Positions 39,414 through 55,163 of a stretch of 64,000 bases of DNA are shown in pieces. The stretch is taken from contig JANYBY010000119.1 of assembly GCA_025360565.1 (NCBI GenBank), positions 15,610-79,609 on the forward strand. Direction: 5' to 3'. How positions within the stretch are numbered: the first letter of the stretch is position 1; every line of letters starts with the position of its first letter. The stretch is from Bacteroidota bacterium. Its GTDB lineage: Bacteria > Bacteroidota > Bacteroidia > B-17B0 > Aurantibacillaceae. The notes beneath the pieces were generated by a model. The model did no database searches, had not been told where the DNA came from, and worked only from the letters and a program-made list of their open reading frames with translations. Position numbers and translations under genes: made by a program.

Positions 39414-40211
39414 TTGGTTAAGGCTTGTCTCTATAAAAAATCGCCTGTTACTTTTTCCGACACAGGAAAGGGCAGGGTAGTAGTTTTATTACATGGATTT
39501 TTAGGCTCTCATAAAATTTGGGAAAAAACCAGTTTAGATCTTTCAAAATCGTACAGGGTAATTGCCATTGATCTGCCTGGGCACGGCGCAACGCCTTGTT
39601 ATGGTTACGCGCATAGTATGGATCTGATGGCAAAATGTGTTAAGGCGGTGATGGATCATTTACGTTTAAAAAAATTTGTGTTGGTTGGCCACAGCATGGG
39701 TGGTTACGCGGCTCTGGCCTTTGCAGATCTTTTTCCCGATTACTTAAACGGCTTATGTTTATATCACAGCAGCGCTTTACCGGATACGGCCGAAAAGAAA
39801 AAAGAACGATTGCGCGCAATAGCCGCGGTGAAGGCCAACAGGGGTGTGTACACAAAAAGCGCCATTAAAAATTTATTTGCCACAAAAAATTTAAAATATT
39901 TAATAGAAGAAATTTTGTTCGCGAATACAATTGCAAAAGGTACAACTAAACAAGGCATTATTGCCGCGCTGCATGGTATGAAGGACAGGCCGAACCGGGA
40001 AATTATTTTAAGCCTCGTTAAATATCCAATAATGATGGTGGTCGGGGAACTGGATAATATTTTACCTTACGAACAATTATTGGCCCAAGCCGAAAAAATA
40101 AAAAGAAAAACCGTTTTGTTTTTAGAGCACGACGGACATTTTGGATTTTTAGAATCGCCCCGCGAAAGCAACAAAGCTTTGAGAAAATTTTTGCGGAAGT
40201 GTTATAAGTGA
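39414..40211 (+). CDS. Alpha/beta hydrolase
   Basis: HGF oxyanion motif, GHSMGG nucleophile elbow, late D and H (GH). Confidence 0.9.
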   Translation: MVKACLYKKSPVTFSDTGKGRVVVLLHGFLGSHKIWEKTSLDLSKSYRVIAIDLPGHGATPCYGYAHSMDLMAKCVKAVMDHLRLKKFVLVGHSMGGYAALAFADLFPDYLNGLCLYHSSALPDTAEKKKERLRAIAAVKANRGVYTKSAIKNLFATKNLKYLIEEILFANTIAKGTTKQGIIAALHGMKDRPNREIILSLVKYPIMMVVGELDNILPYEQLLAQAEKIKRKTVLFLEHDGHFGFLESPRESNKALRKFLRKCYK

Positions 40212-40213
40212 TG

Positions 40214-40963
40214 TTACAAGGTAGAAAGCAGCTTTAAAAAAGCGTCCTTTTTGCGGGAAGCCAAAGGGATACTGGATTTATCGCGCATGATAATGGTGCC
40301 CCCGTCGGCTTTTTTGTAGGTTTCAAAATAATCAATATTAATTAAATGCGATTGATGCGTTCTGAAAAAATTGTATTGCTGAAGCATTTCATCGTACTCT
40401 TTTAAAATTTTAGTGGCTAAAAGTTTTCGCCCGTCAACCAAAATAAAACGCGTGTAATTCCCTTCCGACTCACAGCGAATAATATCTTTTACACTTACCG
40501 CGTGAATATGGTCGCTGCTTTTTAAAATTAATTTTTTTAATTCTTTAGTATGGCTCTGCATGTTGTTGTGCAGGGCATTCATATGTAAACTGATGTTTTT
40601 CTGCTCTAAAGTTTCTTCGGCTTTTTTAATTGCTGATGAAAGCTCTTCCCCATCCACGGGCTTTAAAATATAATCGAGCGCGCTAAACTTAAATGCCTGC
40701 ATGGCAAATTCCTGGTGGGCGGTAATAAAAATAACTTTAAAATTTATTTCATCTATTTTCGATAAGAGGTCAAACCCAGTACCGTCGGGCATTTGAACAT
40801 CTAAAAGAACAATATCCGGGTTATGCAATTCAATAGCTATAATTCCCGACTTAACTGAGTCAGCGCTGCCAACTATTTCAACATTTTTGCAACTTGCTAA
40901 AAGGGTATTTGCAATTACCTCTCTTGCGTTAAGCTCATCATCTATAATAACTACTTTTAACAT
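40214..40963 (-). CDS. LytTR-family response regulator
   Basis: Receiver domain (IIDDE, LDVQMP, ITAH, YILKP) plus LytTR domain 'FFRTHQSHLIN'. Confidence 0.95.
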   Translation of the reverse strand: MLKVVIIDDELNAREVIANTLLASCKNVEIVGSADSVKSGIIAIELHNPDIVLLDVQMPDGTGFDLLSKIDEINFKVIFITAHQEFAMQAFKFSALDYILKPVDGEELSSAIKKAEETLEQKNISLHMNALHNNMQSHTKELKKLILKSSDHIHAVSVKDIIRCESEGNYTRFILVDGRKLLATKILKEYDEMLQQYNFFRTHQSHLINIDYFETYKKADGGTIIMRDKSSIPLASRKKDAFLKLLSTL

Positions 40964-41158
40964 TTCGCGGTTAAATTAAGAATAATTTTTTATACCAAAG
41001 TGAATTATATTTTAGACTTAAAATACGCGGTTATTTTTTGGTTAGGCAATGAAAAAAAGCTTTGCATAGTACCGACTATGGAAAGATTTTTTGAAGCCGT
41101 ATAAGCAAAAAAGAACGAGTAGTTTGGGCTAAAATATATTTCACTTCGGTATTAATCT

Positions 41159-43135
41159 TCAGGCTTCGGGCATAGTAATGCATACTTGTGTACCTCTTGA
41201 AAGCCCTTTTTCATTTTTGAGGTCGGCTATTTTGAGTAAAAATTTTTGTTTGGACTTTTTGTTTAGGATCATTAAACGCTCTTCGGTAATTGTGGTTGCA
41301 AGAGAGGTGTGTTTTTTGCCATGTTGTGCCTTGAGTTTCGCGGCGTTCTCAATTCCTATTCCATTATCTTCTACTATCATTTCTATCATTTTATCTTTTT
41401 GAATAAATTTTAAAACAATATTCCCTTTTCCGTCCTGTTTGTTCATAATGCCATGTTCAATGGCGTTTTCAATAAAGGGCTGCGATAACATGGGCGGAAT
41501 AGAAACAGATTCAACATCAATATTCGGATCGACCTCAATGCTAAAATCAAATTTTTCGTGAAACCGTAATTGCTGTAGTTCCAAATAATATTTAAGAGTG
41601 TCTAATTCTTTTTCAACGGAAACGTATTCGTTTCGGGAATTTTCGAGGATCATGCGCATGAGTTTTGCAAAACTCGAAATGTATTTGGCAACCTCAGCGG
41701 GCTCATGCTTGTAAACGTAATTTTGAATAGCGATCAATGAATTAAAAATAAAATGCGGGTTCATTTGCGAGCGGAATAATTTTTGCTCCACTTCCATTTT
41801 TGTTTGAACGGCCTTTAATTTATTTTGCTGTGCCAATAAAAAGGCAGCTATTAAAATTAAAAGAACAAAACTTGCAAGGCCAAAGATCAAGTACCAGTTC
41901 CGGCTTATTTCCAACTGCTGAATTTTATTTTGCTGGGTGAGTAGTTGAGATCGCTGGGTTAACTTATCAATTTCTTTTTCTTTTTTTTCGGTTTCGTATT
42001 TGGTTTGCATTTCGGTGAGCTGTTTATTTTTATTTAAAGTAAAAAGTGAATCATTTAGAGTTGTTTTTAATTTATGAAACTCCAACGCTTTTTTAAAATC
42101 GCCATTCTTTTCATGGATAATGGAATAGAGTCCGTAACCAAATAACACAAGTTCGGTTGCTTCAGTTTCCTTTGCAAATAGAAAGCCTTTGTTTAAAGCG
42201 TCCATTGCCTTGGTGTAGTTATTTGAATCAATATAGGTAACCGCAATACCAAGGTAATCATCGGCTAAACTATATTTATTTTGTATTTTTTCATGAATCT
42301 CAATAGCTTTAAAATAATACTTTACCGCCAGGCTGTATTTTTTTTTGAATGAGTAGGCGCTCGCAATATTATTGTAGCTAAAGCCTTTTCCAACTGTATC
42401 GTGAAGCTTTTCTCTTACATCTAATGCTAAAAAACAATTGCGTAATTGGTTATCTACATCATCTAGAGAAAAGTAGGCTTCAGAAATATTCTCATAAATT
42501 ACTATCATTGAAACGCTGTCATTTAAAACCTTAAACATTTCCAAGGCCTTAGTAAAATTTTGCAGAGCGGGCGAAAAACTCTTTAATGACATTTGGGTAA
42601 CCCCAATGGTACAATGGTCGGCGGCAATATTTTTGTTATTCCCGGTTTTTTCATCAATTTTTAAAGCTTGCAAAGCGTAGTCAAGAGCTTTTGTAAAATC
42701 ACCAAGAGTATTGTAAACAGAACTTAAATTACATAAGCACATGGACAACATAGTTGTTTTTTTCAGGGTTTTCGCAACTTTAAGCGCTTCGTTATGCCAC
42801 TTTAAAGCCTCATAGTTTTTACCAAGATCTATACTATTAAAAGCTTTTCGATTATAGTTTGCTGCGATATTATAATTGATCCTTTCAATTCTTTTTTCGT
42901 CTTTAATAGATTTGGCAATTTCTAATGCTTCCCGATATAACACTAATCCCTTGTCGGGATCGGTTTTGGAAATTTTTAACGCCTGCGTAATAAGAATTTT
43001 AATTTTAACAGTATCCGCTTTAGCAATTTTGAGTTCGCTGTTCAGATTTTCGAGATTGTTATTTTGGCAAAAGGCCGCGAAAGAAAACAGGAATAAAAAA
43101 TAAGCAAGTGCTTTTTTCATATCTAGGATAGTCAC
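41159..43135 (-). CDS. TPR-sensor histidine kinase 1 (LytS/His_kinase type)
   Basis: Signal peptide, TPRs, single TM, 'RSQMNPHFIFNSL' H-box, 'QPFIENAIEHG', 'DNGIG'. Confidence 0.93.
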   Translation of the reverse strand: MTILDMKKALAYFLFLFSFAAFCQNNNLENLNSELKIAKADTVKIKILITQALKISKTDPDKGLVLYREALEIAKSIKDEKRIERINYNIAANYNRKAFNSIDLGKNYEALKWHNEALKVAKTLKKTTMLSMCLCNLSSVYNTLGDFTKALDYALQALKIDEKTGNNKNIAADHCTIGVTQMSLKSFSPALQNFTKALEMFKVLNDSVSMIVIYENISEAYFSLDDVDNQLRNCFLALDVREKLHDTVGKGFSYNNIASAYSFKKKYSLAVKYYFKAIEIHEKIQNKYSLADDYLGIAVTYIDSNNYTKAMDALNKGFLFAKETEATELVLFGYGLYSIIHEKNGDFKKALEFHKLKTTLNDSLFTLNKNKQLTEMQTKYETEKKEKEIDKLTQRSQLLTQQNKIQQLEISRNWYLIFGLASFVLLILIAAFLLAQQNKLKAVQTKMEVEQKLFRSQMNPHFIFNSLIAIQNYVYKHEPAEVAKYISSFAKLMRMILENSRNEYVSVEKELDTLKYYLELQQLRFHEKFDFSIEVDPNIDVESVSIPPMLSQPFIENAIEHGIMNKQDGKGNIVLKFIQKDKMIEMIVEDNGIGIENAAKLKAQHGKKHTSLATTITEERLMILNKKSKQKFLLKIADLKNEKGLSRGTQVCITMPEA

Positions 43136-43211
43136 AAGTTAATAAAAATATGGGAAATCGTAAAGAAGAAGAAAAAATATAGAGCATCAAAAATTCTCAT
43201 TGTTTTTAAAT

Positions 43212-45152
43212 TTATAATTCAGGCATGCTTATTCGAACTTCAGTGCCTGCGGCAATGCCATCGGCGTTTTTTAAGTCTATAATTTCCAGAGTAAATTTTT
43301 GCTTATTTTGTTTGTTTAAAATAAATAATCTTTCTTCTGTAATTTTGGTTGCTAAGGACTGGTGTTTTTTTTCCCTTAACATTTTGTTGTTTGCGGCACT
43401 TTCTCTTCCTATTCCATTATCTCTTATTAGCATGTCAATTATGTTTTTTTTCTGAACGAATGTAATTGAAATAGCGCCATTTTCATCCGGTTTATTCATA
43501 ATGCCATGTTCTATCGCGTTTTCTACAAAAGGTTGAGAAAACATAGGTGGAATTAATATGGATTCGATATCAATTAATGGATCAACTTTAATTGTAAAGT
43601 CAAATTTATTGGGGAATCGTAATTGCTGTAGCTTCATGTAACATGTAAGGAAGGTGAGTTCATTTTCAATGGTAACAGATTCTTTTCTTGAATTTTCAAG
43701 GGTCATGCGCATCAATTTGGCGAAGCTTGAAATATAATCGGCAACTTCGGAGGGTTGGTGTTTATAAACGTAGTTTTGTATGGCGATTAAAGAATTAAAA
43801 ATAAAATGTGGATTCATTTGCGAGCGAAATAATTTTTGCTCTACTTCCATTTTTGTATGGCTGGCCTTTAATTTATTTTGCTGTGCCAATAAAAAGGCAA
43901 CTATTAAAATTAAAAGAACAAAACTGCCAAGACCCAGGATCAAATACCAATTGCGGCTTATTTCCAGCTGCTGAATTTTATTTTGCTGAGTCAGTATTTG
44001 GGATCGCTGAGTTAATTTAGTGATCTCTTCTTCTTTCTTTGTGGTTTCATATTTGGTTTGCATTTCAACGATCTGTTTATTTTTATCCTCGTTAAACAAA
44101 GTATCATTCAGCATAGCATAAAGTTTTTGATACTCAAAAGCTTTTTTATAATTCCCTTTTTTCTCAAATATATCTACATAAAAACTATAGCAGGTACAAA
44201 CTCGCCGTCTATCTTCCATTTCTCTTGCAATTTTAAGAGCTTGATCAACATTCAAAAGCGCACTATTCAAATCGCCGGTTTCAAAATTAACATTTGCCAC
44301 ATTTGTAAACGCTCCGGCTAAACCCAATAGTTCCTTAGCTTTTATAAAAATGTTCAATGCATTGGTGTAATACTTCAGGGCAGAATCAAAACTTTTTCTT
44401 TTATAAAAAGCATCTCCAATTGTCAAATACGTATAGCCAATACCGATCGTATCGTGAATCATTTCTTTTATTTGCAGCGACATTTGAGCATTTTCCAGTA
44501 GTTCCGGAATCTTGTTTTGCATACTGTATACTGAAGAAATGTTGTCGTATGTGGAGGCAATACGAACACTATCTTTTAATTTTATGAATAATTGTAAGGA
44601 ACTTTTAAAGTTTTTTAAACTAAGCTCATAATTGTTTAATATAAGATGTATTGCTCCAATAGTATTGTAAGCATTAGCAGTTTCAATAATATTTCCAAGC
44701 TTTTCAGATAGTTTAAGCGCCTTCAATGCGTATGCAAGAGAAAGCGGGTAATTTTGTAAATAAAAATAAACAGTAGCCACATCACTCAAGCAAATGGAAA
44801 TAAGCGCTTCCTTGTTAATACGTTTAGCAAGACTTAACGCTTCCAGATCATGAGTTAACGCTTGAGAGTAATTGTTAAGATCACAATAAGCAACCGCAAG
44901 TTGGGTATTTATTTTGCTCATCTTCTCAATATTGTTGGACGATTCAGCCATTGACAATGCTTCTTTAAAGAGGGAGATGGCTTTTTTCGGATCAGAAGCT
45001 AATTCCTTTTGCGCATTTTTGAAAAATATATTTATTTTAACGGTATCAGAAGTGGCAATTTTAAGATCGCTATTCAGTTTTTGAAGTGCACTATTTTGGC
45101 AAAAAAATATTTGGATGGACAATAAAAAATAGAAGAGCGCTACCTTTTTCAT
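43212..45152 (-). CDS. TPR-sensor histidine kinase 2 (tandem paralogue)
   Basis: Same architecture and motifs as kinase 1. Confidence 0.93.
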   Translation of the reverse strand: MKKVALFYFLLSIQIFFCQNSALQKLNSDLKIATSDTVKINIFFKNAQKELASDPKKAISLFKEALSMAESSNNIEKMSKINTQLAVAYCDLNNYSQALTHDLEALSLAKRINKEALISICLSDVATVYFYLQNYPLSLAYALKALKLSEKLGNIIETANAYNTIGAIHLILNNYELSLKNFKSSLQLFIKLKDSVRIASTYDNISSVYSMQNKIPELLENAQMSLQIKEMIHDTIGIGYTYLTIGDAFYKRKSFDSALKYYTNALNIFIKAKELLGLAGAFTNVANVNFETGDLNSALLNVDQALKIAREMEDRRRVCTCYSFYVDIFEKKGNYKKAFEYQKLYAMLNDTLFNEDKNKQIVEMQTKYETTKKEEEITKLTQRSQILTQQNKIQQLEISRNWYLILGLGSFVLLILIVAFLLAQQNKLKASHTKMEVEQKLFRSQMNPHFIFNSLIAIQNYVYKHQPSEVADYISSFAKLMRMTLENSRKESVTIENELTFLTCYMKLQQLRFPNKFDFTIKVDPLIDIESILIPPMFSQPFVENAIEHGIMNKPDENGAISITFVQKKNIIDMLIRDNGIGRESAANNKMLREKKHQSLATKITEERLFILNKQNKQKFTLEIIDLKNADGIAAGTEVRISMPEL

Positions 45153-45196
45153 AGAAAGAATAAGACAAGTTAGGGAGTTTTTAGCACATACAAAAA

Positions 45197-45583
45197 TTAA
45201 TGATTTACCCTTTGGTAATGATAATCAATATGCACCGGACTAAACACAAATTTATAAGCCAAACGGGTTTCGGTTAAAGTATCAATATGTGCTTTAAGAT
45301 TGTTTTTAGTGCCGTCAATATTAAACCAAAATATGGTATCGCCAACAATTTTGTATTTATACCTATAAACAATTGAATTTGGCCCACCTTCAATAACTAT
45401 GCCGCTTTTTAAAAACTGTGATTCAGTATTTTCAGGTGGTTTTGTTATACCCTTCGAAGTGGTAATTGTTCCGACCCCCTTCCATCTACCAATTATTTTT
45501 TTCGAATTATCGTCGCCCTTGTAATAACAATTAATTAAAGTTAATACAAGTACGATCTTAAAACCGGCTTTCAATAAAAACAT
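45197..45583 (-). CDS. Small exported hypothetical protein (lipocalin-like)
   Basis: Hydrophobic N-terminus with Cys, 'IIGRWK', 'Y.I.GDTI', 'I.TLTE..L' pattern. Confidence 0.55.
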   Translation of the reverse strand: MFLLKAGFKIVLVLTLINCYYKGDDNSKKIIGRWKGVGTITTSKGITKPPENTESQFLKSGIVIEGGPNSIVYRYKYKIVGDTIFWFNIDGTKNNLKAHIDTLTETRLAYKFVFSPVHIDYHYQRVNH

Positions 45584-45602
45584 AAAATTATTTTTATAAT
45601 TT

Positions 45603-45640
45603 AAAAACGAAAAGCCCTTCGTTTTTGCGAAAGGCTTTTC
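45603..45640 (-). terminator. Intrinsic terminator after the FG-GAP gene
   Basis: 13-bp stem GAAAAGCCTTTCG / CGAAGGGCTTTTC followed by GTTTTT on the - strand. Confidence 0.75.
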
Positions 45641-45680
45641 TTGTTAATTGTACTTTTAGGCTCTACATACCTAACTGCAC

Positions 45681-47291
45681 TTATTCAACATGAATTATTT
45701 TTTGAGTATAAGTAACCCCGTTTACAATGGATACTAAAAAATAGACCCCTTTACTTTCAACATTTAAGTTGTAAGAATAAGTACCGCTGTCTAAATTTTT
45801 ATTTTCGGTCTTATTAATTAATTGCCCTAAAGAATTAAATAAATTCAATTGAACATTGCAGTTTGAATTTAGCTGAAGTTTTATAGTTGCATGATCAACA
45901 AATGGATTTGGGTAAACTACAATTTCAGCGTTTTTTATTTCTTGTGCATAAATAGCCGTGACTGAGCAAACAGTAACGCTTTGCACAACCATGGTTGCTC
46001 CTTGGCAACCAGTGCCATCACTTCCTGTAACAGTATAAGTTGTGGTAACTGTTGGGCTAATTGCTATTGATGCATTATTAGAAGCGTTGCTCCATGTATA
46101 AGTTGTTGCGCCACCCGCAGTAATTGTTGCTGTTGAGCCCGAACACAACAAGGTTGAAGTTGAACTTGCAGTTACGGTTGGCGCGCTATTAATAAGTATA
46201 GATACGTTAGCGTTTGCCTGATTTGCTGCTACAACATCGGGCTTACCATCATTATTAAAATCACAAATAGATAACCAAGTTGGTGCACCTCCAATTGTAA
46301 AACTGTTTACCGAACCAAAACCTCCTGCGCCATTACCCAAAAAGGTCTGAAGAGAATTGTTTCCGGCAGAAACTACCGCTACATCCTTTTTTCCATCCGA
46401 ATTAAAATCGCCAATGGCCATTCCTCTGGGCGCTCCGGCTGTTACTAAACTTGTGGTAGGTACAAAACTTCCGTTACCGGTACCTAATAATATTGAGATG
46501 CTGTTAGCGCCATTATTGGTTACACTAAGATCGGGTTTACCATCCGAATTAAAATCACCGCATGCAATGCCGCGCGGATTTGTGCTCACCGTAATAGTAC
46601 AGAAGGTGGAGAAAGTGCCTGTTCCCGATCCCAATAAAACAGAAACGTCGGCGCTGTTGTAATTAGCAGTTGCCAAATCCGATTTTCCGTCCGAATTAAA
46701 ATCTCCAACCGCCACTGCATAAGGACTTGTTCCTGTAGAATAGTTAACTGCAGTTAAAAAACTTCCTGTTCCGGTTCCAATTAAAACGGATACAGTCATA
46801 GTACTTCCGTTTGTTGCAACCAGATCCACTTTACCATCTCCATTAAAATCACCTGAGGCAATAGACTGTGGCACTACACCTACAGTAAAATTAGTTACTG
46901 CACCAAATCCACCAATGCCGTTACCAAGTAATACCGCAATTAATGATGCGCTTGCAGGCGCTAAATTGGTTATGGCCAAATCAAGTTTACTGTCTCCATT
47001 AAAATCGGCATTAATTATACCACAAGGCTGTGTGCCCGCTGTAAAAGTTGTAGCTGGCATAAAACTGCCGGTACCGGTGCCTAATAATATACTTACATTG
47101 TTTTGTGCCTGACTGGTTACGGCAACATCTTGTTTTCCGTCGCCGTTAAAATCACCACACGTAGTTCCAAGCGGACTTATGCCGGTTGAAAAAGTTGTTT
47201 GGGGTAAAAAACATATCCCCTGGGCCTTTAGGCTGGTTGCTGAGAACGTACCTAAAAAGGCGATTGCGATCAATTGTAATTGTATTTTCAT
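45681..47291 (-). CDS. FG-GAP seven-repeat protein with T9SS type A CTD
   Basis: Seven (G)DFN(G/S/N)DG/SK.D repeats, Thr-rich Ig-like segment, CTD 'VYPNPF...NSLGQ...GVYF'. Confidence 0.92.
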   Translation of the reverse strand: MKIQLQLIAIAFLGTFSATSLKAQGICFLPQTTFSTGISPLGTTCGDFNGDGKQDVAVTSQAQNNVSILLGTGTGSFMPATTFTAGTQPCGIINADFNGDSKLDLAITNLAPASASLIAVLLGNGIGGFGAVTNFTVGVVPQSIASGDFNGDGKVDLVATNGSTMTVSVLIGTGTGSFLTAVNYSTGTSPYAVAVGDFNSDGKSDLATANYNSADVSVLLGSGTGTFSTFCTITVSTNPRGIACGDFNSDGKPDLSVTNNGANSISILLGTGNGSFVPTTSLVTAGAPRGMAIGDFNSDGKKDVAVVSAGNNSLQTFLGNGAGGFGSVNSFTIGGAPTWLSICDFNNDGKPDVVAANQANANVSILINSAPTVTASSTSTLLCSGSTATITAGGATTYTWSNASNNASIAISPTVTTTYTVTGSDGTGCQGATMVVQSVTVCSVTAIYAQEIKNAEIVVYPNPFVDHATIKLQLNSNCNVQLNLFNSLGQLINKTENKNLDSGTYSYNLNVESKGVYFLVSIVNGVTYTQKIIHVE

Positions 47292-47322
47292 TTTTTTAAG
47301 TTTTAATTATTATTTATACAAC

Positions 47323-47411
47323 CAAAATTATGCCATTCTACAGGGTTACAAGGGTATAATAAATATTCGCCTAGGATAATTAAATATTCGTGGTCAGGTA
47401 TAAGGAATTCG
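47323..47411 (-). promoter_or_regulatory. Promoter A: three 21-bp-period direct repeats plus -7 box
   Basis: - strand units start at 47411 CGAATTCCTTAT, 47390 CGAATATTTAAT and 47369 CGAATATTTATT; TAATTTTG at 47330-47323. Confidence 0.8.
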
Positions 47412-47464
47412 TTATTGCATTTATTTACTCGTCCCTTAAAAAATATTTTTAAAATTTATTTTAT

Positions 47465-47608
47465 TTGGGCGCCTTATCGCGCTTTCACTGCAAGCCCCGC
47501 AGTCTTTTGCTGTGTTGCTATGGCTGCGGTGGCTTCCTCTGGTCGCCTCCTCGCCTAAGCAACCCAACGCAAAATTCTTTCGGGGGCTTTCCGTTCAATC
47601 GCGGGCGC
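47465..47608 (+). other. GC-rich structured repeat-like or ncRNA-like element
   Basis: Nested complementary pairs TTTTGC (47505-47510)/GCAAAA (47569-47574) and GTTGCT (47514-47519)/AGCAAC (47558-47563); starts TTGGGC and contains GCTTTC twice. Confidence 0.45.
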
Positions 47609-47778
47609 GGCATTAGGCTGAAATTCTGGTTGCAAAATTCCGAAGGGTTTTTATCCCCGGATTTTTGAAAATTAACAGTAATAGTGCTAACTACAAAGTA
47701 TTTGAGGGACGACTATTTATACGAAGGGGAGTAAAAGGGAAAAATCTGGAAATTGCTCTGTTTATTTAATGAATTTGT

Positions 47779-47813
47779 AAAAAAAAAGCCCGCGGAATCT
47801 ACGCCGCGGACTT
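47779..47813 (-). terminator. Intrinsic terminator of the 51587-47839 operon
   Basis: - strand AGTCCGCGG-CGTAGATT-CCGCGGGCT followed by a U-tract (A9 at 47779-47787 on +). Confidence 0.8.
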
Positions 47814-47838
47814 CTTAACCCATAGAACATGAAAAGCG

Positions 47839-48498
47839 TTATTTTGAAACAATGATTTTTTTTAAGTAAGACATACCTTGAGAATTCTGAAGTTTAACAA
47901 AATAAACCCCATCTGATAGATCACTCACATTAATTGTTGCGGAATTACCCGATACCTTTTCTGAAAATACTTTTTCGCCTATAGAATTGAATAGGCTTAC
48001 TGAAAGATTTTCAATTTCATTTTTAAAATCAATGGTAAAATAATTTTTAACCGGATTTGGAAATAGTTTAAAACTCTTCGAAAAATTTTCTTCTATTCCC
48101 GTTGCACTCGCGGCAAGTACAACAAGTTTGTGTCCGCCGGGCCCATATCCTCCAAAGGCTGTAGTGTAAGTTCCCGGTGTATTTATGGTTAGCAAAGAGT
48201 AGCCGCCGTTCACCCCTGCATTAAAAGTTGGCGTTCCTGTTGCCACCAATGTTCCGTTGCAATACCAATCTACGATCAAAGGATTTACGATCAGTATACA
48301 ATTACCATCAAAATTAGCACGAATAACCAGGCCACCGGTGTTTGGCAAATATACCGTATCGGCAATATTGTTATATCCGAAGTTAAGGGTACAATTGCCC
48401 GGCACGGCTTGAACACCTCCACAGCCGGCAACATTATTGTTTTGCGCGCTTAAGCCGGTAACGCAAAAACAACCAATGGCAAAAAATAATTTTTTCAT
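47839..48498 (-). CDS. Small secreted protein with T9SS type A CTD
   Basis: Signal peptide (..SAQ), about 110-aa Cys/Gly-rich domain, CTD 'LFPNPV...NSIGE...GVYFVKL'. Confidence 0.85.
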   Translation of the reverse strand: MKKLFFAIGCFCVTGLSAQNNNVAGCGGVQAVPGNCTLNFGYNNIADTVYLPNTGGLVIRANFDGNCILIVNPLIVDWYCNGTLVATGTPTFNAGVNGGYSLLTINTPGTYTTAFGGYGPGGHKLVVLAASATGIEENFSKSFKLFPNPVKNYFTIDFKNEIENLSVSLFNSIGEKVFSEKVSGNSATINVSDLSDGVYFVKLQNSQGMSYLKKIIVSK

Positions 48499-48512
48499 AA
48501 TTATAATTTTTA

Positions 48513-51500
48513 CTATTCTTTAATTAATTTGATCACATTAAAAGATCCTGCGTCTCCATCTTTAGCAATTATCTTCAAAAAATAAATACCATTGCTAAGC
48601 GAAGAAATATTTATTTGCTGTTCGTTTTTGTTAACATCAAATTGGGCTATTTGTTTTAAAACAAATTTTCCGGATGCGTCAGTTATCTCCAATCCAAAAT
48701 CTCTTGCTTTATCTACTGCAATATTAATGGTCAATTTATCATGTGTTGGGTTTGGAAAAACACTGAACGTTAACGCGCCGTTTGCATTTGGTATAATGCC
48801 AAGAATTGGCGATACTATTACGGAAATTGTAGTTGTACCAATACAGCCATTTAATGTTGTGGCGGTTAAAGTATATACTTGCGTAGAGACAGGCGTATAA
48901 CTTACCAGTATACCGGTTAAGTTGCCGGGTTGCCAGGTATAAGTATTAGCACCGCCTCCTGTTAACGATACAGTTGATCCAACAGAAGTTGTTGGCGAAC
49001 TTGCAGTAGCGGTAATTACAGGTGGAGCAATATTAAGAGTTTGATTGGTTAAACTTCCGGGACCAAAACCATTTGTTGACATGAGAGAAACTGTATACGT
49101 ACCATAATTTGCAAAGGAAATGGTTGGGTTTTGTGATACCGGCGTATTAATGGTAACGCCTGCCATTGGTGTTACACTCCAGCTCCAGCTTGTTGGCGAG
49201 TTGGTTGAATTATCGTTGAATAATAACGATGCGGTTAAACTACACGAAACTCCCGCATAATTAAACGCACTCACCGGTGGCGAATTGCTTGGCACAATAT
49301 CTACCTGATAAATACCGCGGCCAAATGTGGATGCTCTTAATTTTACCGGGGAGGCAGGAGAAATTTCAAGATCCGAAATTGATGTATTTGGCAAACCGGT
49401 GTTGTAAAGTGTCCATGAAGCGGCCAGATTATCTATGTAATAAACACCCACATCCATTCCAATATAAATTCTGTCATTTACATTTCCGTTTTCGTATACA
49501 ATACAATTAACAGGAAGATTTGGTAAACCCGCGGTTGTTACCGCTGTCCACGTTGTTCCGCCGGTAATTGTTTTCCATACTTTTGTTCCCGCGGTGTATC
49601 CGCTAAATACGACCCATGCATTGTTGGGATTTGTTGGAGAAACTTTAATATCCATTAATTGTGATGTCCAGAACGGAAGATTGTTGTTGGTAATTGTCCA
49701 CGTTACTCCTGCGTCAATAGATTTAAAAACGCCCGAAGTTCCGTGAATTGCATATATCACTTGATTATTTGAAGGAGCAATACAAAACTCTCGTATGTAT
49801 TGGCCTGCAGTAACCGGTGCCATTGCCCCTTGTGGAGCAAACCAAACGGGAGGTATTCCGGCTGTAGATTTTTTCATTTGCGTTTGCCCCGCATAAAATG
49901 TATTTGCATTTTGTGGATCCTGTTTCCATGGCGATACCCATGCACCCGGACCCGGCGCCCCTGCGGTACAAGTTGTCCAGGCAAGTCCACCGTTGGTCGA
50001 ATAATAATAAGCACCATTTGGCCTCGAGGCAAATAAATTCAGGTCGTTCGTTCTGTCTATAAAACAATCAGAGCCGTCGCTAGATAAACTGGCCGAGTAA
50101 TTTCCATTGTCGTAAATGTTCGAACCGTTATCCTGATGACCGCTAATTAATAAATTGGGAGAGAGAGACGAGAGACCCATTTTCCACATTTGGGCAATGT
50201 TCATAGTTCCGTTTAGATCGTTCCATAATGTGCCGGTGTATTGGCTAAGGCCTCCATCGCAAACATCGTACAAAGTTCCGTTTGGTAAATATTCTAATTC
50301 GTGATGGTCGGCATGAATAAATGGAATCGGACTCATAGTTACAGTATAAGCGCAACCGATATTTGTAAAAGAACTTCCTGAATTTAATGATTTCCATACT
50401 GCTATTCCACCTACCACAACTTCCGCTGCGTTGGTTGGTGAGGAAGCCAGAGCCAGATCATATATTCCCTGACCTTCTGCAGGCATTGGGGTAACACAAT
50501 CAAAACTTAAAATATTTGGAGTGTTGCTCATTAATGAAAAACTTACGCCTGCGTTTAATGAACGATAAATTCCCGTGAAACTCACGTCGTTTGTTTTTAC
50601 AACATACACGCAATTTGGATTTGCAGGTGTAACCGCTACTGCCGATCTTCCGCCGCCTGCAGGAATACCGTTAATTACCTGCACAAATGTTTGACCGGCA
50701 TCGGTTGAAACAGAAAAGCTTGTTCCTGTTGCATAAACTGTGTTTGCACTTGTGGCATTAAATTCAAGATCGTAAGCGTTAGCGGTGCTTACTTGCGGCC
50801 AGCTAATTCCGCCGTTGGTCGTTGTATATATTCCCTGATTTGTAGCGGCAATAATGATCAAAGGATTAACCGGATTAATTATTAATCTTCTCATCATTAC
50901 TAATTGATTTGCTGTAAAGCTTAAGCCTGTTGGGTTCCAGGATGTGCCGGCATTGGTTGAAGTTAAAACACCGCGCGAATAACTTCCGCGCCCTTGAAAA
51001 TTATAAGCATCGCCTGTTGCCAAAAACATATTGTTGGTGTTTAACGGATCTATTGCCAGATCAGAACAGCCAATAACAGCTAGATTATCGGTATTGGTTG
51101 TCCACGACGCGCCGTTGTTTGTTGTTTTCCATAATCCGCCTGCAGGTGCGCCCACCCAAAAAGTTCCGGCTATTGAAGGGTGAAACGTCATAAAATTTAA
51201 TCTGCCTGCTTTTCTTGGTAAACCGTTCTCTGCAAGCCCACTTAAATTGCCCATTGGACCTAACGGTGTCCAGGTGGTTGATACCATTTGGCTTTTGCTT
51301 TGATTTTTTGAATTTGTTTTTAAATAAGCTTCATAATTATCCCACGTTTGGCTTGGAAGCGAAAGATCGCCGCTCGGATAAACGCGGGGTTCCATAAAAG
51401 CCTCCCAACGCCTGAATTGTTTATAGCCTTTACCTTTAACCTTTATGTCTTTATCTTTCCAGTACGCATTAAATTCTTCTTGAATTTTATAAAAATTATC

Positions 51501-51587
51501 TCCCCGTTGCATGGATTGGTTCCAGTTTTGAGAAAAACTACTCATTGCTATAAGAATGATAGTTATAAGTGCTAATTGCTTTTTCAT
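48513..51587 (-). CDS. BNR/Asp-box (VPS10-like) repeat protein with PKD domain and T9SS type A CTD
   Basis: Repeated S/T-x-[ND]-x-G-x-[ST]-W boxes, 'GYKQFRRWE.F.EPR' N-terminal motif, PKD 'DNSTNSPTSWSW', CTD. Confidence 0.9.
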   Translation of the reverse strand: MKKQLALITIILIAMSSFSQNWNQSMQRGDNFYKIQEEFNAYWKDKDIKVKGKGYKQFRRWEAFMEPRVYPSGDLSLPSQTWDNYEAYLKTNSKNQSKSQMVSTTWTPLGPMGNLSGLAENGLPRKAGRLNFMTFHPSIAGTFWVGAPAGGLWKTTNNGASWTTNTDNLAVIGCSDLAIDPLNTNNMFLATGDAYNFQGRGSYSRGVLTSTNAGTSWNPTGLSFTANQLVMMRRLIINPVNPLIIIAATNQGIYTTTNGGISWPQVSTANAYDLEFNATSANTVYATGTSFSVSTDAGQTFVQVINGIPAGGGRSAVAVTPANPNCVYVVKTNDVSFTGIYRSLNAGVSFSLMSNTPNILSFDCVTPMPAEGQGIYDLALASSPTNAAEVVVGGIAVWKSLNSGSSFTNIGCAYTVTMSPIPFIHADHHELEYLPNGTLYDVCDGGLSQYTGTLWNDLNGTMNIAQMWKMGLSSLSPNLLISGHQDNGSNIYDNGNYSASLSSDGSDCFIDRTNDLNLFASRPNGAYYYSTNGGLAWTTCTAGAPGPGAWVSPWKQDPQNANTFYAGQTQMKKSTAGIPPVWFAPQGAMAPVTAGQYIREFCIAPSNNQVIYAIHGTSGVFKSIDAGVTWTITNNNLPFWTSQLMDIKVSPTNPNNAWVVFSGYTAGTKVWKTITGGTTWTAVTTAGLPNLPVNCIVYENGNVNDRIYIGMDVGVYYIDNLAASWTLYNTGLPNTSISDLEISPASPVKLRASTFGRGIYQVDIVPSNSPPVSAFNYAGVSCSLTASLLFNDNSTNSPTSWSWSVTPMAGVTINTPVSQNPTISFANYGTYTVSLMSTNGFGPGSLTNQTLNIAPPVITATASSPTTSVGSTVSLTGGGANTYTWQPGNLTGILVSYTPVSTQVYTLTATTLNGCIGTTTISVIVSPILGIIPNANGALTFSVFPNPTHDKLTINIAVDKARDFGLEITDASGKFVLKQIAQFDVNKNEQQINISSLSNGIYFLKIIAKDGDAGSFNVIKLIKE

Positions 51588-51610
51588 ATTAAGAGGTTTA
51601 ATTCCTATTA

Positions 51611-51700
51611 TAAAATTAAAGAGTTTAAATGTAGGAACGGGGATAGATTAAATATCCGCTTGGGATAATTAAATATTCGTAACCAATAATCAATTATCCG
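51611..51700 (-). promoter_or_regulatory. Promoter B: three 21-bp-period direct repeats plus -7 box
   Basis: - strand units start at 51700 CGGATAATTGAT, 51679 CGAATATTTAAT and 51658 CGGATATTTAAT; TAATTTTA at 51618-51611. Confidence 0.8.
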
Positions 51701-51779
51701 CATCCTAAAGAGGGTGTTATGGCTTTTTGTTGAATGATATTAGGTTAATCAAAAAACAAAAGTGCGGATGGCAGAGTAT

Positions 51780-51868
51780 CGAATTCCTTCAAATTGCAAA
51801 CGTTCATTTATTTTTTCAAGGCGAATATTTATTCTGACATAAAAAACAATAATAACCTGCTAATTTTA
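51780..51868 (+). promoter_or_regulatory. Promoter C: three 21-bp-period direct repeats plus -7 box
   Basis: + strand units start at 51780 CGAATTCCTTCA, 51801 CGTTCATTTATT and 51822 CGAATATTTATT; TAATTTTA at 51861-51868. Confidence 0.75.
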
Positions 51869-51891
51869 GGACATTAATAAAATGTTCAATT

Positions 51892-53853
51892 ATGAGAAAA
51901 TTATTTTTTACAGTAATAAGTATATTAACAGTTACTTTATTTGAAGCCCAGCAAAACCCATATTTTCAATGGGCAAAAGCAGTTGGCGGCACAAATAATG
52001 ATAAAGCCAATTCAATAACACATGATGTATTAGGAAATATCTATATTACTGGCGATTTTGAAGGAACGGTTGATTTTGATCCGGGTCCCGGTACATTTAC
52101 CATGGTTGCAGTAGCTTTTAACGATGTTTTTATTTTAAAATTAGATCCCGTTGGAAATTTTATTTGGGCTAAAAGTTTTGGAGGCGCTGATGGAGAGACA
52201 GGGAAGTCAATAAGCGTTGATGCATTGGGAAATGTGTATACATCGGGATATTATAGACTGACAGTTGATTTTGATCCCGGACCGGGAACGTTCAGTATTA
52301 CATCGGCCGGTGTTGATGATATTTTTATTTCGAAACTTGACGCTTTGGGAAATTTTGTTTGGGCCAAAAGCATGGGCGGAACGATTTACGACTATGGCTA
52401 TTCTCTAACGGTTGACGCTGTGGGGAATGTGTACACTACAGGAAATTTTCAAGGCACTGCCGATTTTGACCCGGGCATAGGAACCTATACTTTGAGTGTA
52501 GTGGGGCCCGGTGATTATGGTTTTATTTCAAAGCTCGACGTGTCCGGAAATTTTGTATGGGCAAAAAGTATTGGAGGCAGCGCTTTCTGTTATGGCAGAT
52601 CTATTTCAGTAGATGTAACAGGAAATGTTTTTTCTACCGGACTTTATGGGGGCATTGTAGATTTTGATCCGGGAGTTGGAACCTATACGTTAAACTCACC
52701 TACCGGGTATGATATTTATATTTTAAAATTAGATGTTTCAGGAAACTTTGTTTGGGTAAAAGGCATGGGGGGTACAGGATACGATACCGGAAATTCTATT
52801 GTACTTGATGGGTCCGGAAATATTTTTACCACAGGGCGTTTTCAAAACACCGTAGATTTTGATCCCGGAGTTGGCACCTATACATTATCGTGTATGGGCA
52901 GTGATGTTTTTGTTTCGAAACTGGATGCTTCCGGAAATTTTGTATGGGCTAAAAATATGGGCGGAACAAATTCAAGTACAGAAGCACAGTGTATAAGTTT
53001 GGATGCATTGGGAAATGTTTATACAACCGGATATTATGATGGAACAACTGATTTTGATCCGGGAGTAACAACGTTTACTTTGGCACCGGTGGGAACGGAG
53101 GATGTTTTTATTTCGAAGCTCACCTCTTCAGGAAATTTTGCCTGGGCCAAAAGCATTGGTTCCGCCGGCTTATTTTCGGGAGGAAACGCGTTGACGGTTG
53201 ATGCTTTGAGCAATGTTTATACAGCGGGGTATTTTCAGGGGCTTACTGATTTTGGAATTGGTCAGGGAAATTTTACGCTAACCGCAAACGGACAATACGA
53301 TGTTTTTGTTCATAAAATTGGGCAATGTATTTTACCAAGCGTTCCCGCAAACGTAACGAGTTTCACAAACCAAAATATTTGCGATGCTAATTCTACTACA
53401 CTCAGCGCCAATTCAACCGGAACAATAAATTGGTATTCAACTCCAACATCCACGGTAGTTTTAGGTTCGGGAACTAATTTTATTACGCCAACTTTATCGG
53501 TAGGTAATTATACTTATTACGCTGAAGCTGCTACCTGCACGGTAAGCGTGGCTCGAACACCAGTTACCGTAACAGCAAACATTTGTTTGGGAGTACAAGA
53601 AAGGATAAATGAGAATGCTGAATTTAAGATCTACCCAAATCCGGTGAATGATCTTTGTACTTTTGATGTTGAATCATTGGTTGCATTGGAAAGTGTAATT
53701 GAGATCGTAAATTCATTGGGGCAAAAAGTGCTGAATGAAAAATTTGAAACGCGGCAAGCCTCTTTTAATTTATCAAAATTATCTCCCGGAATTTATTTTG
53801 CCTCAATTAAACAAGGAGTATTTGTAAAAACGGTTAAGTTGATAAAGGAGTAA
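51892..53853 (+). CDS. SBBP-repeat beta-propeller protein with Ig-like domain and T9SS type A CTD
   Basis: Seven 65-66-aa repeats (DFDPG motif at 52072, 52267, 52462, 52660, 52855, 53050; DFG at 53248), 'WY..PT...LG.G..F.TP.L....TYY' Ig-like domain, CTD. Confidence 0.9.
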   Translation: MRKLFFTVISILTVTLFEAQQNPYFQWAKAVGGTNNDKANSITHDVLGNIYITGDFEGTVDFDPGPGTFTMVAVAFNDVFILKLDPVGNFIWAKSFGGADGETGKSISVDALGNVYTSGYYRLTVDFDPGPGTFSITSAGVDDIFISKLDALGNFVWAKSMGGTIYDYGYSLTVDAVGNVYTTGNFQGTADFDPGIGTYTLSVVGPGDYGFISKLDVSGNFVWAKSIGGSAFCYGRSISVDVTGNVFSTGLYGGIVDFDPGVGTYTLNSPTGYDIYILKLDVSGNFVWVKGMGGTGYDTGNSIVLDGSGNIFTTGRFQNTVDFDPGVGTYTLSCMGSDVFVSKLDASGNFVWAKNMGGTNSSTEAQCISLDALGNVYTTGYYDGTTDFDPGVTTFTLAPVGTEDVFISKLTSSGNFAWAKSIGSAGLFSGGNALTVDALSNVYTAGYFQGLTDFGIGQGNFTLTANGQYDVFVHKIGQCILPSVPANVTSFTNQNICDANSTTLSANSTGTINWYSTPTSTVVLGSGTNFITPTLSVGNYTYYAEAATCTVSVARTPVTVTANICLGVQERINENAEFKIYPNPVNDLCTFDVESLVALESVIEIVNSLGQKVLNEKFETRQASFNLSKLSPGIYFASIKQGVFVKTVKLIKE

Positions 53854-53900
53854 TTTTAATTTTTGAAAGGAATTAAAACTGTAGGTGTTGAGGTAAAAAA

Positions 53901-55163
53901 CTACGGTTGTTTCAAAATAAATTTCCGCAATAAATTTAAAGCCGAACTTGCCGTCATAACAATATTTCGTTGACGGTTATCGCCAAAAATAAATTTAAAG
54001 GCCTGCACTTTTTCTTTGTTGGCAATGGCTATCCAAACCAAGCCCACAGGTTTTTCGGCAGTACCGCCACTTGGCCCGGCAATACCCGAAACCGAAAGCG
54101 CATAATCTGAGTTAAATTTTTTAAGTGTGTTTACCGCCAATTGCTCTACACATTCTTTACTCACCGCGCCAACGGTTAAAAAAAGTTTTTGTTCAACCTG
54201 CAGCAATTCGTGTTTGGCGGTATTTGTGTAAGGAACAATTGCACCTTTAAAAATTTCGGAAGCGCCGGGAATGGAAGTGAATAAAGAAGCAATGTAACCG
54301 CCTGTGCAACTTTCGGCAAGGGCAATAGTTTGTTTTTTATCACGCAACAGATCGCTCACAATTTTTTGCAGAGTAGGGGCTTCCTCTCCGTAATTTTCAT
54401 ATCCAAAAATGTGGTTTTCGATCAAGGCACTTAATTTAATAATTTCTTCATCCACATTTTTTTTAAGCGTGTTCAGGTCAGGCCCAATGGTTGAGAGACG
54501 CAAACGCACCATGCCGGATTGCGGCAAGTAAGCCAATTTAATTTTCTTCGCGGCTAAATTATTTTCCCAATCTTCAATTATTTCGGCAATAGCACTTTCG
54601 CCCATGCCCTGCGTTAAAACTGTTTTGTGATAAATAAACGGAAGCGTATTTTCCTTTTTCAATTTTGGCAAAACTGTTTCTGCCATCATTGCTTTCATTT
54701 CGTAAGGTACGCCCGGCATACTTATAAATACAGTGTCGTTTTTTTTCATCCACATGCCGGGCGCCGTGCCGTTGGGATTAGGAATTACAAAGCAACCCTC
54801 CGGAACAAAGGCCTGCTGTCGGTTTATTTCACCTACCTCACGCCCACGTTTTATAAAAAAAGAAGAAACGATCTTTAAAACGTTTTCATCTAAAATCAAT
54901 TTCGCGTTAAAATAATTTGAAAATGTTTTTTTGGTAATATCATCTTTTGTTGGCCCTAATCCTCCTGTTATAAAAACAATATTGGCTCGGTTAATAGCGG
55001 CATCAAACGCATTTACAATTGCGGTTTCATCATCCGAAACACTTGCCATATGCACTACAGTAATACCCAGCATGTTTAATTCCTGGGCGATCCAAACAGA
55101 ATTGGTATTGGTAATTTGTCCGATCAAGATCTCATCGCCAATAGTTAAAATTTCAGCTTTCAT
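53901..55163 (-). CDS. cinA: Competence/damage-inducible protein CinA (molybdopterin-binding-like plus PncC domains)
   Basis: 'MKAEILTIGDEILIGQ..NTNS', 'TGGLGPTKDD.T', 'AESCTGG', 'SGIAGP.GG...KPVGLV'. ATG 55163 is chosen over the track start. Confidence 0.93.
   Translation of the reverse strand: MKAEILTIGDEILIGQITNTNSVWIAQELNMLGITVVHMASVSDDETAIVNAFDAAINRANIVFITGGLGPTKDDITKKTFSNYFNAKLILDENVLKIVSSFFIKRGREVGEINRQQAFVPEGCFVIPNPNGTAPGMWMKKNDTVFISMPGVPYEMKAMMAETVLPKLKKENTLPFIYHKTVLTQGMGESAIAEIIEDWENNLAAKKIKLAYLPQSGMVRLRLSTIGPDLNTLKKNVDEEIIKLSALIENHIFGYENYGEEAPTLQKIVSDLLRDKKQTIALAESCTGGYIASLFTSIPGASEIFKGAIVPYTNTAKHELLQVEQKLFLTVGAVSKECVEQLAVNTLKKFNSDYALSVSGIAGPSGGTAEKPVGLVWIAIANKEKVQAFKFIFGDNRQRNIVMTASSALNLLRKFILKQP

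What the first reader, a model, noticed from the sequence alone, without database searches (positions are those of the whole stretch)
40214..53853. Candidate self-contained LytTR regulon: two TPR sensors, one regulator, three matched promoters, four T9SS cargo genes
The three promoters each carry three direct repeats at an exact 21-bp period, starting at 47411/47390/47369 (-), 51700/51679/51658 (-) and 51780/51801/51822 (+). All nine units start with CG in the gene's orientation, with consensus CG(A/G)ATATTTA(A/T)T. ACGAATATTTAATTATCC is identical in promoters A and B. The proximal repeat lies 39, 40 and 39 bp from a TAATTTT(G/A) -7 box and 78, 71 and 70 bp from the ATG. LytTR regulators such as AgrA, ComE and VirR bind direct repeats about 21 bp apart, and a LytTR gene with two kinases is adjacent. 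I infer that an extracytoplasmic signal switches on FG-GAP, BNR (plus a small cargo) and SBBP surface proteins together. The motif itself differs from the AgrA-type consensus and I do not recognise it as described.
Basis: partly seen in the sequence, partly recalled or inferred. Interest (0 to 1): 0.8.

Follow-up and report, generated by a model that had tools for sequence, protein, structure and literature searches.

The report
LytTR operator controlling T9SS cargo genes
Three neighbouring promoters for secreted surface proteins carry the same triple, evenly spaced DNA repeat, and this repeat travels through other genomes together with the adjacent LytTR two-component regulator, so it is very probably that regulator's binding site and defines a small, testable regulon in an uncultured Bacteroidota bacterium.

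Summary
Three promoters (A 47411-47349 minus strand, B 51700-51638 minus strand, C 51780-51842 plus strand) each carry three units at an exact 21-bp period. All nine units start with CG. A TAATTTT(G/A) -7 box lies 39-40 bp after the proximal unit.

In the 3.6-Mb genome only these three promoters have this architecture. Triples occur only at period 21, and the two other triples are weak and lie inside genes.

Comparative data support the interpretation strongly. Orthologues of the regulator at 73% identity or more occur in only 4 of 185 family genomes (G000 and three others), a fifth has a 57% relative, and two metagenome contigs add more. Wherever the DNA is assembled, the order is the same: sortilin/BNR cargo, FG-GAP cargo, TPR kinase, LytTR regulator. 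Both cargo genes carry the same three-unit operator.

Ten promoters from five sources keep the period, the CG starts (30 of 30) and the 39-40 bp distance, while the spacers have diverged. Perfect tandem pairs occur only in genomes that have the orthologue. Other LytTR genes in this genome sit beside a different 21-bp repeat (ACCACTTA).

The second kinase, the small cargo gene and the SBBP promoter are additions specific to this genome. Binding, activation and the signal remain untested. I class it as a new variant of a known kind and as moderately interesting.

The parts
40214..40963 (-). Response regulator with a REC domain and a LytTR DNA-binding domain (249 aa). The phospho-acceptor Asp54 lies in LLDVQMPD.
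   Evidence: Pfam Response_reg E=3e-21 and LytTR 58.8 bits against a cut-off of 22.6. REC alignment to 6m8o. Sequence.
41159..43135 (-). Sensor kinase HK1: signal peptide, about 380 aa of TPR repeats, one TM helix (about 415-437), His_kinase PF06580 and HATPase. The real start is probably the ATG at 43120.
   Evidence: Pfam. Hydropathy. H-box NPHFIFNSL and N/G boxes. Its own TTAACTTGTG box lies upstream.
43212..45152 (-). Sensor kinase HK2 with the same architecture. Against HK1 the TPR sensor is 42% identical and the TM plus kinase core 72% identical.
45197..45583 (-). 128-aa ORF with a lipoprotein-like N-terminus (LINC). It has no family match and is absent from the orthologous cassettes.
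45603..45638 (-). Intrinsic terminator hairpin plus T-run after the FG-GAP gene. It separates promoter A's transcript from the kinase-regulator operon.
   Evidence: Sequence. An equivalent hairpin is present in all six related loci.
45681..47291 (-). FG-GAP/VCBS beta-propeller protein with a type-A T9SS C-terminal domain (536 aa).
   Evidence: Pfam FG-GAP_3 E=2e-63 and Por_Secre_tail. TIGR04183. Orthologues 47-53% identical in G123, G127, L145 and L146.
47323..47330 (-). -7 box TAATTTTG of promoter A, 39 bp after the start of the proximal unit.
47349..47411 (-). Operator A: three 21-bp units (CGAATTCCTTAT, CGAATATTTAAT, CGAATATTTATT).
47839..48498 (-). 219-aa T9SS cargo, 14 bp after the BNR gene and so probably co-transcribed from promoter B. 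A terminator follows at about 47780-47815.
   Evidence: A 35%-identical homologue in G047 has its own two-unit site.
48513..51587 (-). Sortilin-Vps10/BNR plus PKD protein with a type-A T9SS C-terminal domain (1024 aa).
   Evidence: Orthologues 49-62% identical in G123, G127, L145 and L146.
51611..51618 (-). -7 box TAATTTTA of promoter B, 40 bp after the start of the proximal unit.
51638..51700 (-). Operator B: CGGATAATTGAT, CGAATATTTAAT, CGGATATTTAAT.
51780..51842 (+). Operator C: CGAATTCCTTCA, CGTTCATTTATT, CGAATATTTATT. It is divergent from B, with 79 bp between the two distal units.
51861..51868 (+). -7 box TAATTTTA of promoter C, 39 bp after the start of the proximal unit.
51892..53853 (+). 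SBBP beta-propeller plus Ig_7 protein with a type-A T9SS C-terminal domain (653 aa). I did not find it next to the cassette in other genomes.

Best explanation
The region is a LytTR-type two-component regulon. Two sensor kinases with predicted periplasmic TPR domains (a lineage-specific duplicate pair) phosphorylate one REC-LytTR regulator. The phosphorylated regulator binds head-to-tail to three in-phase direct repeats with core CGAATATTTAWT and a 21-bp period, which is two helical turns. If the -7 box spans -12 to -5, these units lie at about -93 to -40. From there the regulator would activate three sigma-A promoters that have a good -7 box (TAATTTTR) but no conserved -33 element. These promoters drive four T9SS-secreted beta-propeller or surface proteins: FG-GAP, sortilin/BNR with a small co-transcribed cargo, and SBBP. 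The kinase-regulator operon sits behind a terminator, has its own promoter and carries no repeats, so the circuit is a simple feed-forward switch and not an autoinducing loop. Shown here: the repeat architecture, its uniqueness in the genome, and its co-conservation with the regulator and the cargo genes. Inferred: binding, activation as opposed to repression, which kinase feeds the regulator, and the signal.
For: (1) The architecture is exact and unique in the genome. (2) The cassette BNR cargo, FG-GAP cargo, TPR kinase, LytTR regulator is conserved in G123 (regulator 82% identical), G127 (75%), L145 (83%) and L146 (81%). Gene tables show the same order for two further contigs. (3) In an alignment of ten promoters from five sources, all have 3 units at 21 bp, 30 of 30 units start with CG, and the -7 box is at 39 bp (7 promoters) or 40 bp (3 promoters). 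Information content is 1.15-1.33 bits per column in the cores, 0.4-0.7 in the spacers and 0.28 upstream, which is a phylogenetic footprint. (4) Among 185 family genomes, zero-mismatch tandem pairs occur only in G000, G123 and G127, all of which carry the orthologue. (5) 80 loci (1.36 Mb) around regulators at 57% identity or less lack the motif apart from one weak pair. The 57-65% relatives lack both cassette and motif. (6) Other LytTR genes in G000 (C306, C343) lie beside a different 21-bp direct repeat, ACCACTTA. (7) Repeats of 9-11 nt with 11-13 nt spacers are the known LytTR site format (PMC4847170). The position just upstream of a promoter without a -33 element fits an activator. (8) The regulator has the acceptor Asp and both kinases have H, N and G boxes.
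Against: G013 has the orthologue (73%) but no detectable motif. Its cargo promoter lies beyond a contig end, so this is uninformative, not contradictory. G047 has a good two-unit site upstream of a homologue of the small cargo, but its best regulator is only 46% identical, so another regulator can apparently use a similar site. The cassettes are physically linked, so co-occurrence of motif and regulator is partly one inherited block and not independent events. The motif is AT-rich and in helical phase, which alone could cause DNA curvature.
Confidence: 0.72

Rival explanations
1. The repeats are a real operator, but a different transcription factor binds them: another of the nine LytTR proteins of this genome, or an unrelated factor.
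For: There are nine LytTR genes in G000. G047 has a similar two-unit site without a close orthologue.
Against: The motif follows the orthologue across genera and is absent from about 180 family genomes without it. The conserved cassette encodes no other DNA-binding protein. At least two paralogues are associated with a different repeat.
Confidence: 0.1
2. The adjacent regulator binds the repeats but represses the cargo genes, or acts both ways depending on occupancy of the distal unit.
For: Nothing in the sequence fixes the sign of regulation. Three sites could allow graded or dual control.
Against: The sites end about 27 bp upstream of the -7 box and do not overlap it. The promoters lack a conserved -33 element, as expected for activator-dependent promoters. 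As general knowledge, not checked here, characterised LytTR regulators at this position (AgrA, ComE, PlnC, YpdB) are activators.
Confidence: 0.1
3. The phased AT-rich repeats are not protein sites. They would be curved-DNA or UP-like promoter elements, or relics of promoter duplication.
For: The units are AT-rich and spaced at two helical turns. Promoters A and B share an 18-nt identical stretch.
Against: The invariant CG or CGAAT at the start of 30 of 30 units, combined with diverged spacers across five genomes, indicates base-specific selection. Outside the cores, A, B and C are not alike, so recent duplication is unlikely.
Confidence: 0.05

Closest known systems
AgrA / ComE / PlnC-type LytTR response regulators of Firmicutes
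   Same: REC plus LytTR architecture. Direct repeats of 9-12 nt at a period of about 21 bp, immediately upstream of the promoter. No universal consensus; each regulator has its own sequence (PMC4847170, PMC6193735).
   Different: There are three in-phase units instead of two, and the distal unit has a diverged sequence (CGAAT followed by a variable T/C-rich tail). The promoter is of the Bacteroidota -7/-33 type. No repeats lie upstream of the kinase-regulator operon, so there is no positive feedback. No peptide pheromone or AgrC/ComD-type kinase is present. The targets are T9SS cargo proteins, not bacteriocin, competence or virulence RNA genes.
LytS/LytR-family systems (E. coli YpdA/YpdB and BtsS/BtsR)
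   Same: A PF06580 His_kinase is paired with a LytTR regulator. NCBIfam's best match for the regulator is BtsR, at 127.6 bits and below the equivalog cut-off of 246. The regulon is small and local.
   Different: The sensor is a predicted periplasmic TPR array behind a signal peptide with a single TM helix, not a 5TM-Lyt/GAF input. Two kinases are present in this genome.
Porphyromonas gingivalis FimS/FimR and PorY/PorX
   Same: FimS is a Bacteroidota sensor kinase with TPR repeats; the window's kinases match it weakly (73-86 bits against a cut-off of 600). As general knowledge, not checked here, PorXY links two-component signalling to the T9SS.
   Different: As general knowledge, FimR is not a LytTR regulator, and PorX controls T9SS machinery genes through an ECF sigma factor. 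Here the predicted targets are a few cargo genes out of at least 150 in the genome, reached through a direct operator.

Membership tests
LytTR-family response regulator | C-terminal LytTR DNA-binding domain (PF04397) | tested here: met
   58.8 bits against a gathering score of 22.6, residues 152-246.
LytTR-family response regulator | N-terminal receiver domain with a phospho-acceptor Asp | tested here: met
   PF00072 E=3e-21. D54 aligns with the acceptor position in 6m8o.
LytTR-family response regulator | Target sites made of direct repeats of 9-11 nt separated by 11-13 nt | tested here: met
   12-nt cores with 9-nt spacers, giving an exact 21-bp period in 10 promoters. The format is as described in PMC4847170. 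There are three units, not two.
LytTR-family response regulator | The regulator physically binds these repeats | not testable with these tools
   This needs EMSA or footprinting. Only co-conservation is shown.
LytS/PF06580 sensor kinase | His_kinase (PF06580) dimerisation and phospho-acceptor domain with a conserved His, plus an HATPase domain | tested here: met
   PF06580 at 77-78 bits in both kinases. NPHFIFNSL H-box, ENAIEHG and DNGIG boxes.
LytS/PF06580 sensor kinase | 5TM-Lyt membrane sensor domain, as in LytS, YpdA and BtsS | tested here: not met
   There is one internal TM helix and an N-terminal signal peptide, and the input is a TPR array. These kinases share the kinase core with the family but not the canonical LytS architecture.
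T9SS type-A cargo | C-terminal Por_Secre_tail / TIGR04183 domain plus an N-terminal signal peptide, in a genome with T9SS machinery | tested here: met
   All four proteins score above the cut-offs. N-termini are signal-like. gldM is present and there are at least 150 CTD genes in G000.
agr/com-type quorum-sensing circuit | The regulator's repeats lie upstream of its own operon (positive feedback), and a peptide pheromone gene is present | tested here: not met
   There are no units upstream of the kinases or the regulator. A terminator and a separate TAACTTGT-box promoter lie there in all six loci. No small peptide gene is conserved in the cassette.

The most novel reading that the evidence does not exclude
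The three-unit operator may be a distinct mode of LytTR action, not simply a dimer site with a spare copy. In this reading, three protomers (or a dimer plus a lower-affinity distal protomer on the diverged CGAAT-TCC unit) set a threshold for switching on a dedicated set of T9SS surface proteins. The cassette, patchily distributed across genera, would be a portable sensor-plus-cargo module. Bacteroidota would use such modules to deploy particular beta-propeller surface proteins in response to a periplasmic ligand bound by the TPR domain. Some genomes of this genus gave more than 50 matches to the whole regulator, a count that includes other response regulators through the shared receiver domain. 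If many of these are LytTR systems working the same way, this would point to a large undescribed layer of cargo-specific T9SS regulation.
Probability: 0.25. Interest if true: 0.7.

Novelty: new variant of a known kind. Interest (0 to 1): 0.5.

Why it matters
LytTR regulators are numerous in Bacteroidota, yet my literature searches found no operator or regulon described for any of them, and no link to T9SS cargo. This locus offers a compact, conserved and directly testable case. It has one regulator, a defined 63-bp operator at a fixed distance from a Bacteroidota -7 box, and a handful of secreted beta-propeller proteins as output. It also offers a natural comparison of one sensor kinase against two. 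It would give a first handle on how individual T9SS substrates, out of at least 150 in this genome, are switched on selectively. It would also show how a LytTR activator works with the unusual Bacteroidota sigma-A promoter.

Tried and rejected
(1) Weak motif triples at C21:1498 and C319:3051 lie inside long open frames and are chance.

(2) A two-unit site at C205:1389 has no gene downstream and its box spacing is off, so I did not count it.

(3) A 'conserved second site' (xGAATATTTATTTACnGTAAAyGAAAATGTATT) appears at window 20489-20521 and in G055, G071, G013 and G123. It lies inside a 259-aa ORF that I judged from its sequence to be rsmA/ksgA (not family-searched), so it is a false positive.

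(4) The G013 homologues of the BNR and SBBP cargo genes have no operator upstream. The true neighbour gene runs off the contig end.

(5) Regulator relatives at 57-65% identity (L054, L066, L227) have neither cassette nor motif. L082 (41% identical) has one weak pair that I could not interpret.

(6) Rfam gave no match in 40000-54000.

(7) I tested whether TPR-kinase/LytTR pairs are general in G000. They are not; only this locus has a TPR-type PF06580 kinase.

(9) DNA for several long orthologous contigs (P0005, P0009, P0017, P0019) was not retrievable; only gene tables were returned.
Full report
**Observation**

The window lies in a 3.6-Mb, 433-contig, 37% GC assembly that is about 92% complete.

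- Promoter A (minus strand): CGAATTCCTTAT, CGAATATTTAAT and CGAATATTTATT, starting at 47411, 47390 and 47369.
- Promoter B (minus strand): CGGATAATTGAT, CGAATATTTAAT and CGGATATTTAAT at 51700, 51679 and 51658.
- Promoter C (plus strand): CGAATTCCTTCA, CGTTCATTTATT and CGAATATTTATT at 51780, 51801 and 51822.

The TAATTTT(G/A) box starts 39, 40 and 39 bp after the start of the proximal unit. The ATGs follow at 78, 71 and 70 bp.

The distal units and C2 are diverged.

Pfam and NCBIfam confirm the gene content:
- a REC+LytTR regulator (40214-40963);
- two TPR+PF06580 kinases (41159-43135 and 43212-45152);
- four proteins with type-A T9SS C-terminal domains: FG-GAP, sortilin/BNR+PKD, a 219-aa protein 14 bp behind the BNR gene, and SBBP+Ig.

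**More than chance**

All five exact consensus matches in the window, and 5 of 19 in the genome, are in these promoters.

I built a weight matrix from the nine units and scanned the genome. Triples of sites occur five times at period 21 and never at any other period between 15 and 28. The two extra triples are weak and lie inside long reading frames.

A stricter scan required two good units, a -7 box at the right distance and a gene downstream. It returns only A, B and C. One orphan two-unit site on C205 has no gene downstream.

This is selective, because the genome encodes at least 150 type-A T9SS cargo genes and has gldM.

**Comparative evidence**

This is the main new result. Among 185 genomes of the family:
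- regulator orthologues at 73% identity or more occur only in G123 (82%), G127 (75%) and G013 (73%), besides G000 itself;
- G134 has a 57% relative;
- every other LytTR protein is 50% identical or less.

Two metagenome contigs carry further orthologues: L145 (83%) and L146 (81%). A protein search shows about 22 distinct orthologues at 73% or more.

Wherever the DNA is assembled, the gene order is the same: sortilin/BNR cargo, FG-GAP cargo, one TPR kinase, the regulator. Gene tables give the same order for two further contigs.

Upstream of both cargo genes lies the same three-unit operator. Examples:
- G123 FG-GAP: CGAATATTAAAT / CGAATACTTAAA / CGAATATTTATT.
- G127 BNR: CGAATTCCTGAA / CGGATATTTAAT / CGGATATTTATT.
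- L145 BNR: CGAATCCTTACA / CGAATCCTTGTT / CGAATACACATC.

Ten promoters from five sources are aligned:
- All ten keep the exact 21-bp period.
- 30 of 30 units start with CG, and nearly all with CGAAT.
- The -7 box starts at +39 (seven promoters) or +40 (three promoters).
- Mean information content is 1.15-1.33 bits per column in the three cores and 1.05 in the -7 box. It is 0.4-0.7 in the spacers and 0.28 upstream.

This is the pattern expected of a protein-binding footprint, not of recent duplication.

A family-wide pattern scan found zero-mismatch tandem pairs only in G000, G123 and G127. The hits at two mismatches or fewer elsewhere are of two kinds. Some fall in a coding stretch that I take to be rsmA/ksgA. 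The rest are about as frequent as the reversed-pattern control.

Several negative controls agree:
- 1.36 Mb around 80 more distant LytTR genes lacks the motif.
- The 57-65% relatives lack both cassette and motif.
- Two other LytTR genes in G000 (C306, C343) sit beside a different 21-bp direct repeat, ACCACTTA-N13-ACCACTTA.

**Caveats**

G013 and its close relatives always have a contig break inside the cargo gene upstream of the kinase. Their operator therefore could not be seen, and no motif was found elsewhere in G013.

G047 has a good two-unit site upstream of a 35%-identical homologue of the small 219-aa cargo. Its best regulator is only 46% identical and lies elsewhere in that genome.

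Motif and regulator are physically linked, so their co-occurrence is partly inheritance of one block.

**What is specific to this genome**

The other cassettes have one kinase. HK1 and HK2 are closer to each other than to any orthologue. Against each other they are 42% identical in the sensor and 72% in the TM-plus-kinase part. Against orthologues the figures are 33-35% and 65-68%.

Both kinases keep the H, N and G boxes. Each has a signal-peptide-like N-terminus and a single TM helix between the TPR array and the kinase domain, so the TPR domain is predicted to be periplasmic.

The 128-aa lipoprotein-like ORF, the 219-aa cargo and the divergent SBBP promoter C are not found beside the cassette elsewhere.

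**Mechanism**

Known LytTR sites consist of two 9-11-nt repeats with 11-13-nt spacers and have no shared consensus (PMC4847170; PMC6193735). The flavobacterial sigma-A -7 box TAnnTTTG spans -12 to -5 (PMC9723704).

On that basis the three cores lie at about -93 to -82, -72 to -61 and -51 to -40. All are on one face of the helix. The alignment shows no conserved TTG at -33.

I therefore infer a class-I/II-like activator. The phosphorylated regulator occupies the repeats and recruits RNA polymerase to promoters that are otherwise weak.

In all six loci the FG-GAP gene ends in an intrinsic terminator. The kinase gene that follows has its own conserved TAACTTG(T/G) box and no repeats. The system is therefore not directly autoregulated, unlike agr, com and the LRS systems.

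Binding, the sign of regulation, kinase-regulator pairing and the signal are all inferred.

**Comparison and novelty**

The parts are familiar: a REC-LytTR regulator, a PF06580 kinase core, 21-bp direct repeats and T9SS cargo.

The differences are these:
- a three-unit operator with a diverged distal unit;
- a predicted periplasmic TPR input in place of the 5TM-Lyt or AgrC type;
- coupling to a Bacteroidota -7 promoter;
- no feedback on the kinase-regulator operon;
- an output of selected T9SS beta-propeller proteins.

Literature searches found no described LytTR operator in Flavobacteria or Bacteroidota and no LytTR-T9SS link. I class it as a new variant of a known kind. It is of moderate interest, and its main value is as a clean, testable model.

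Noticed in passing
window 47450-47640 (minus strand), between the small-cargo terminator and operator A: A GC-rich element of about 190 bp in a 37% GC genome. It has at least 12 copies in G000 at 78-93% identity (C306:9773-9962, C276, C390, C193, C78, C24, C343 and others). A similar sequence lies upstream of a BNR-family cargo gene in G013:C116. There is no Rfam match. It could be a MITE/REP-like repeat or a small RNA gene.
   Followed up: partly
G000 contigs C306:10146, C343:10693, C343:15208, C27:5475, C283:1924: A second family of 21-bp direct repeats, ACCACTTA-N13-ACCACTTA. It lies next to two other LytTR regulators (C306:7683-8396 and C343:13799-14551). One site is upstream of a large protein whose C-terminus looks like a type-B T9SS (CHU_C-like) domain; this is by eye and was not family-searched. 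One is upstream of the C343 kinase-regulator operon, and one is upstream of a gldM paralogue (C343:15641-17317). It is probably the operator of those paralogues.
   Followed up: partly
window 45160-45175 and 43140-43160 (minus strand); also L021, L146: The kinase genes are preceded by a conserved (C/T)TAACTTG(T/G) box, i.e. TAnnTTGY, one base shorter than the sigma-A -7 box. It resembles motif SM5 of Flavobacterium psychrophilum, which PMC9723704 groups with motifs most likely under alternative sigma factors. HK1 keeps its own copy, as expected if promoter and kinase were duplicated together.
   Followed up: partly
L022 (G047:C33:174214-174246, minus strand): A two-unit site, CGAATATTTATA-N9-CGAATATTTAAT, upstream of a 227-aa T9SS protein 35% identical to the window's 219-aa cargo. 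That genome's best regulator match is only 46% identical and is not nearby.
   Followed up: partly
window 20489-20521 (minus strand): A sequence resembling two motif units. It lies inside a 259-aa ORF (20227-21006) that I judged from its sequence to be rsmA/ksgA, without a family search (peptide ...TIEYLFTVHENVF...). It recurs in relatives because the protein is conserved, so it is a false positive for motif scans.
   Followed up: yes
window 45197-45583 (minus strand): A 128-aa ORF with a lipoprotein-like N-terminus between the FG-GAP terminator and HK2. It has no family match and is absent from the orthologous cassettes. A TAATTTTA box overlaps its ATG, so the start, or the gene itself, is uncertain.
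   Followed up: no
G013:C54 end (L021 8970-9163) and contigs of P0013, P0017, P0019: In all G013-type genomes the assembly breaks inside the T9SS cargo gene upstream of the kinase. This suggests a repeated or paralogous sequence there. The regulator tree also does not follow genus boundaries: G000 is closer to genus g24 members (82%) than to its congener G013 (73%). The cassette may therefore move laterally.
   Followed up: no
G000 C205:1348-1389 (minus strand): An orphan two-unit site, CGAATATCTACA-N9-CGAATATTTATA, preceded by AGG like the proximal units. No gene lies downstream in that orientation.
   Followed up: partly
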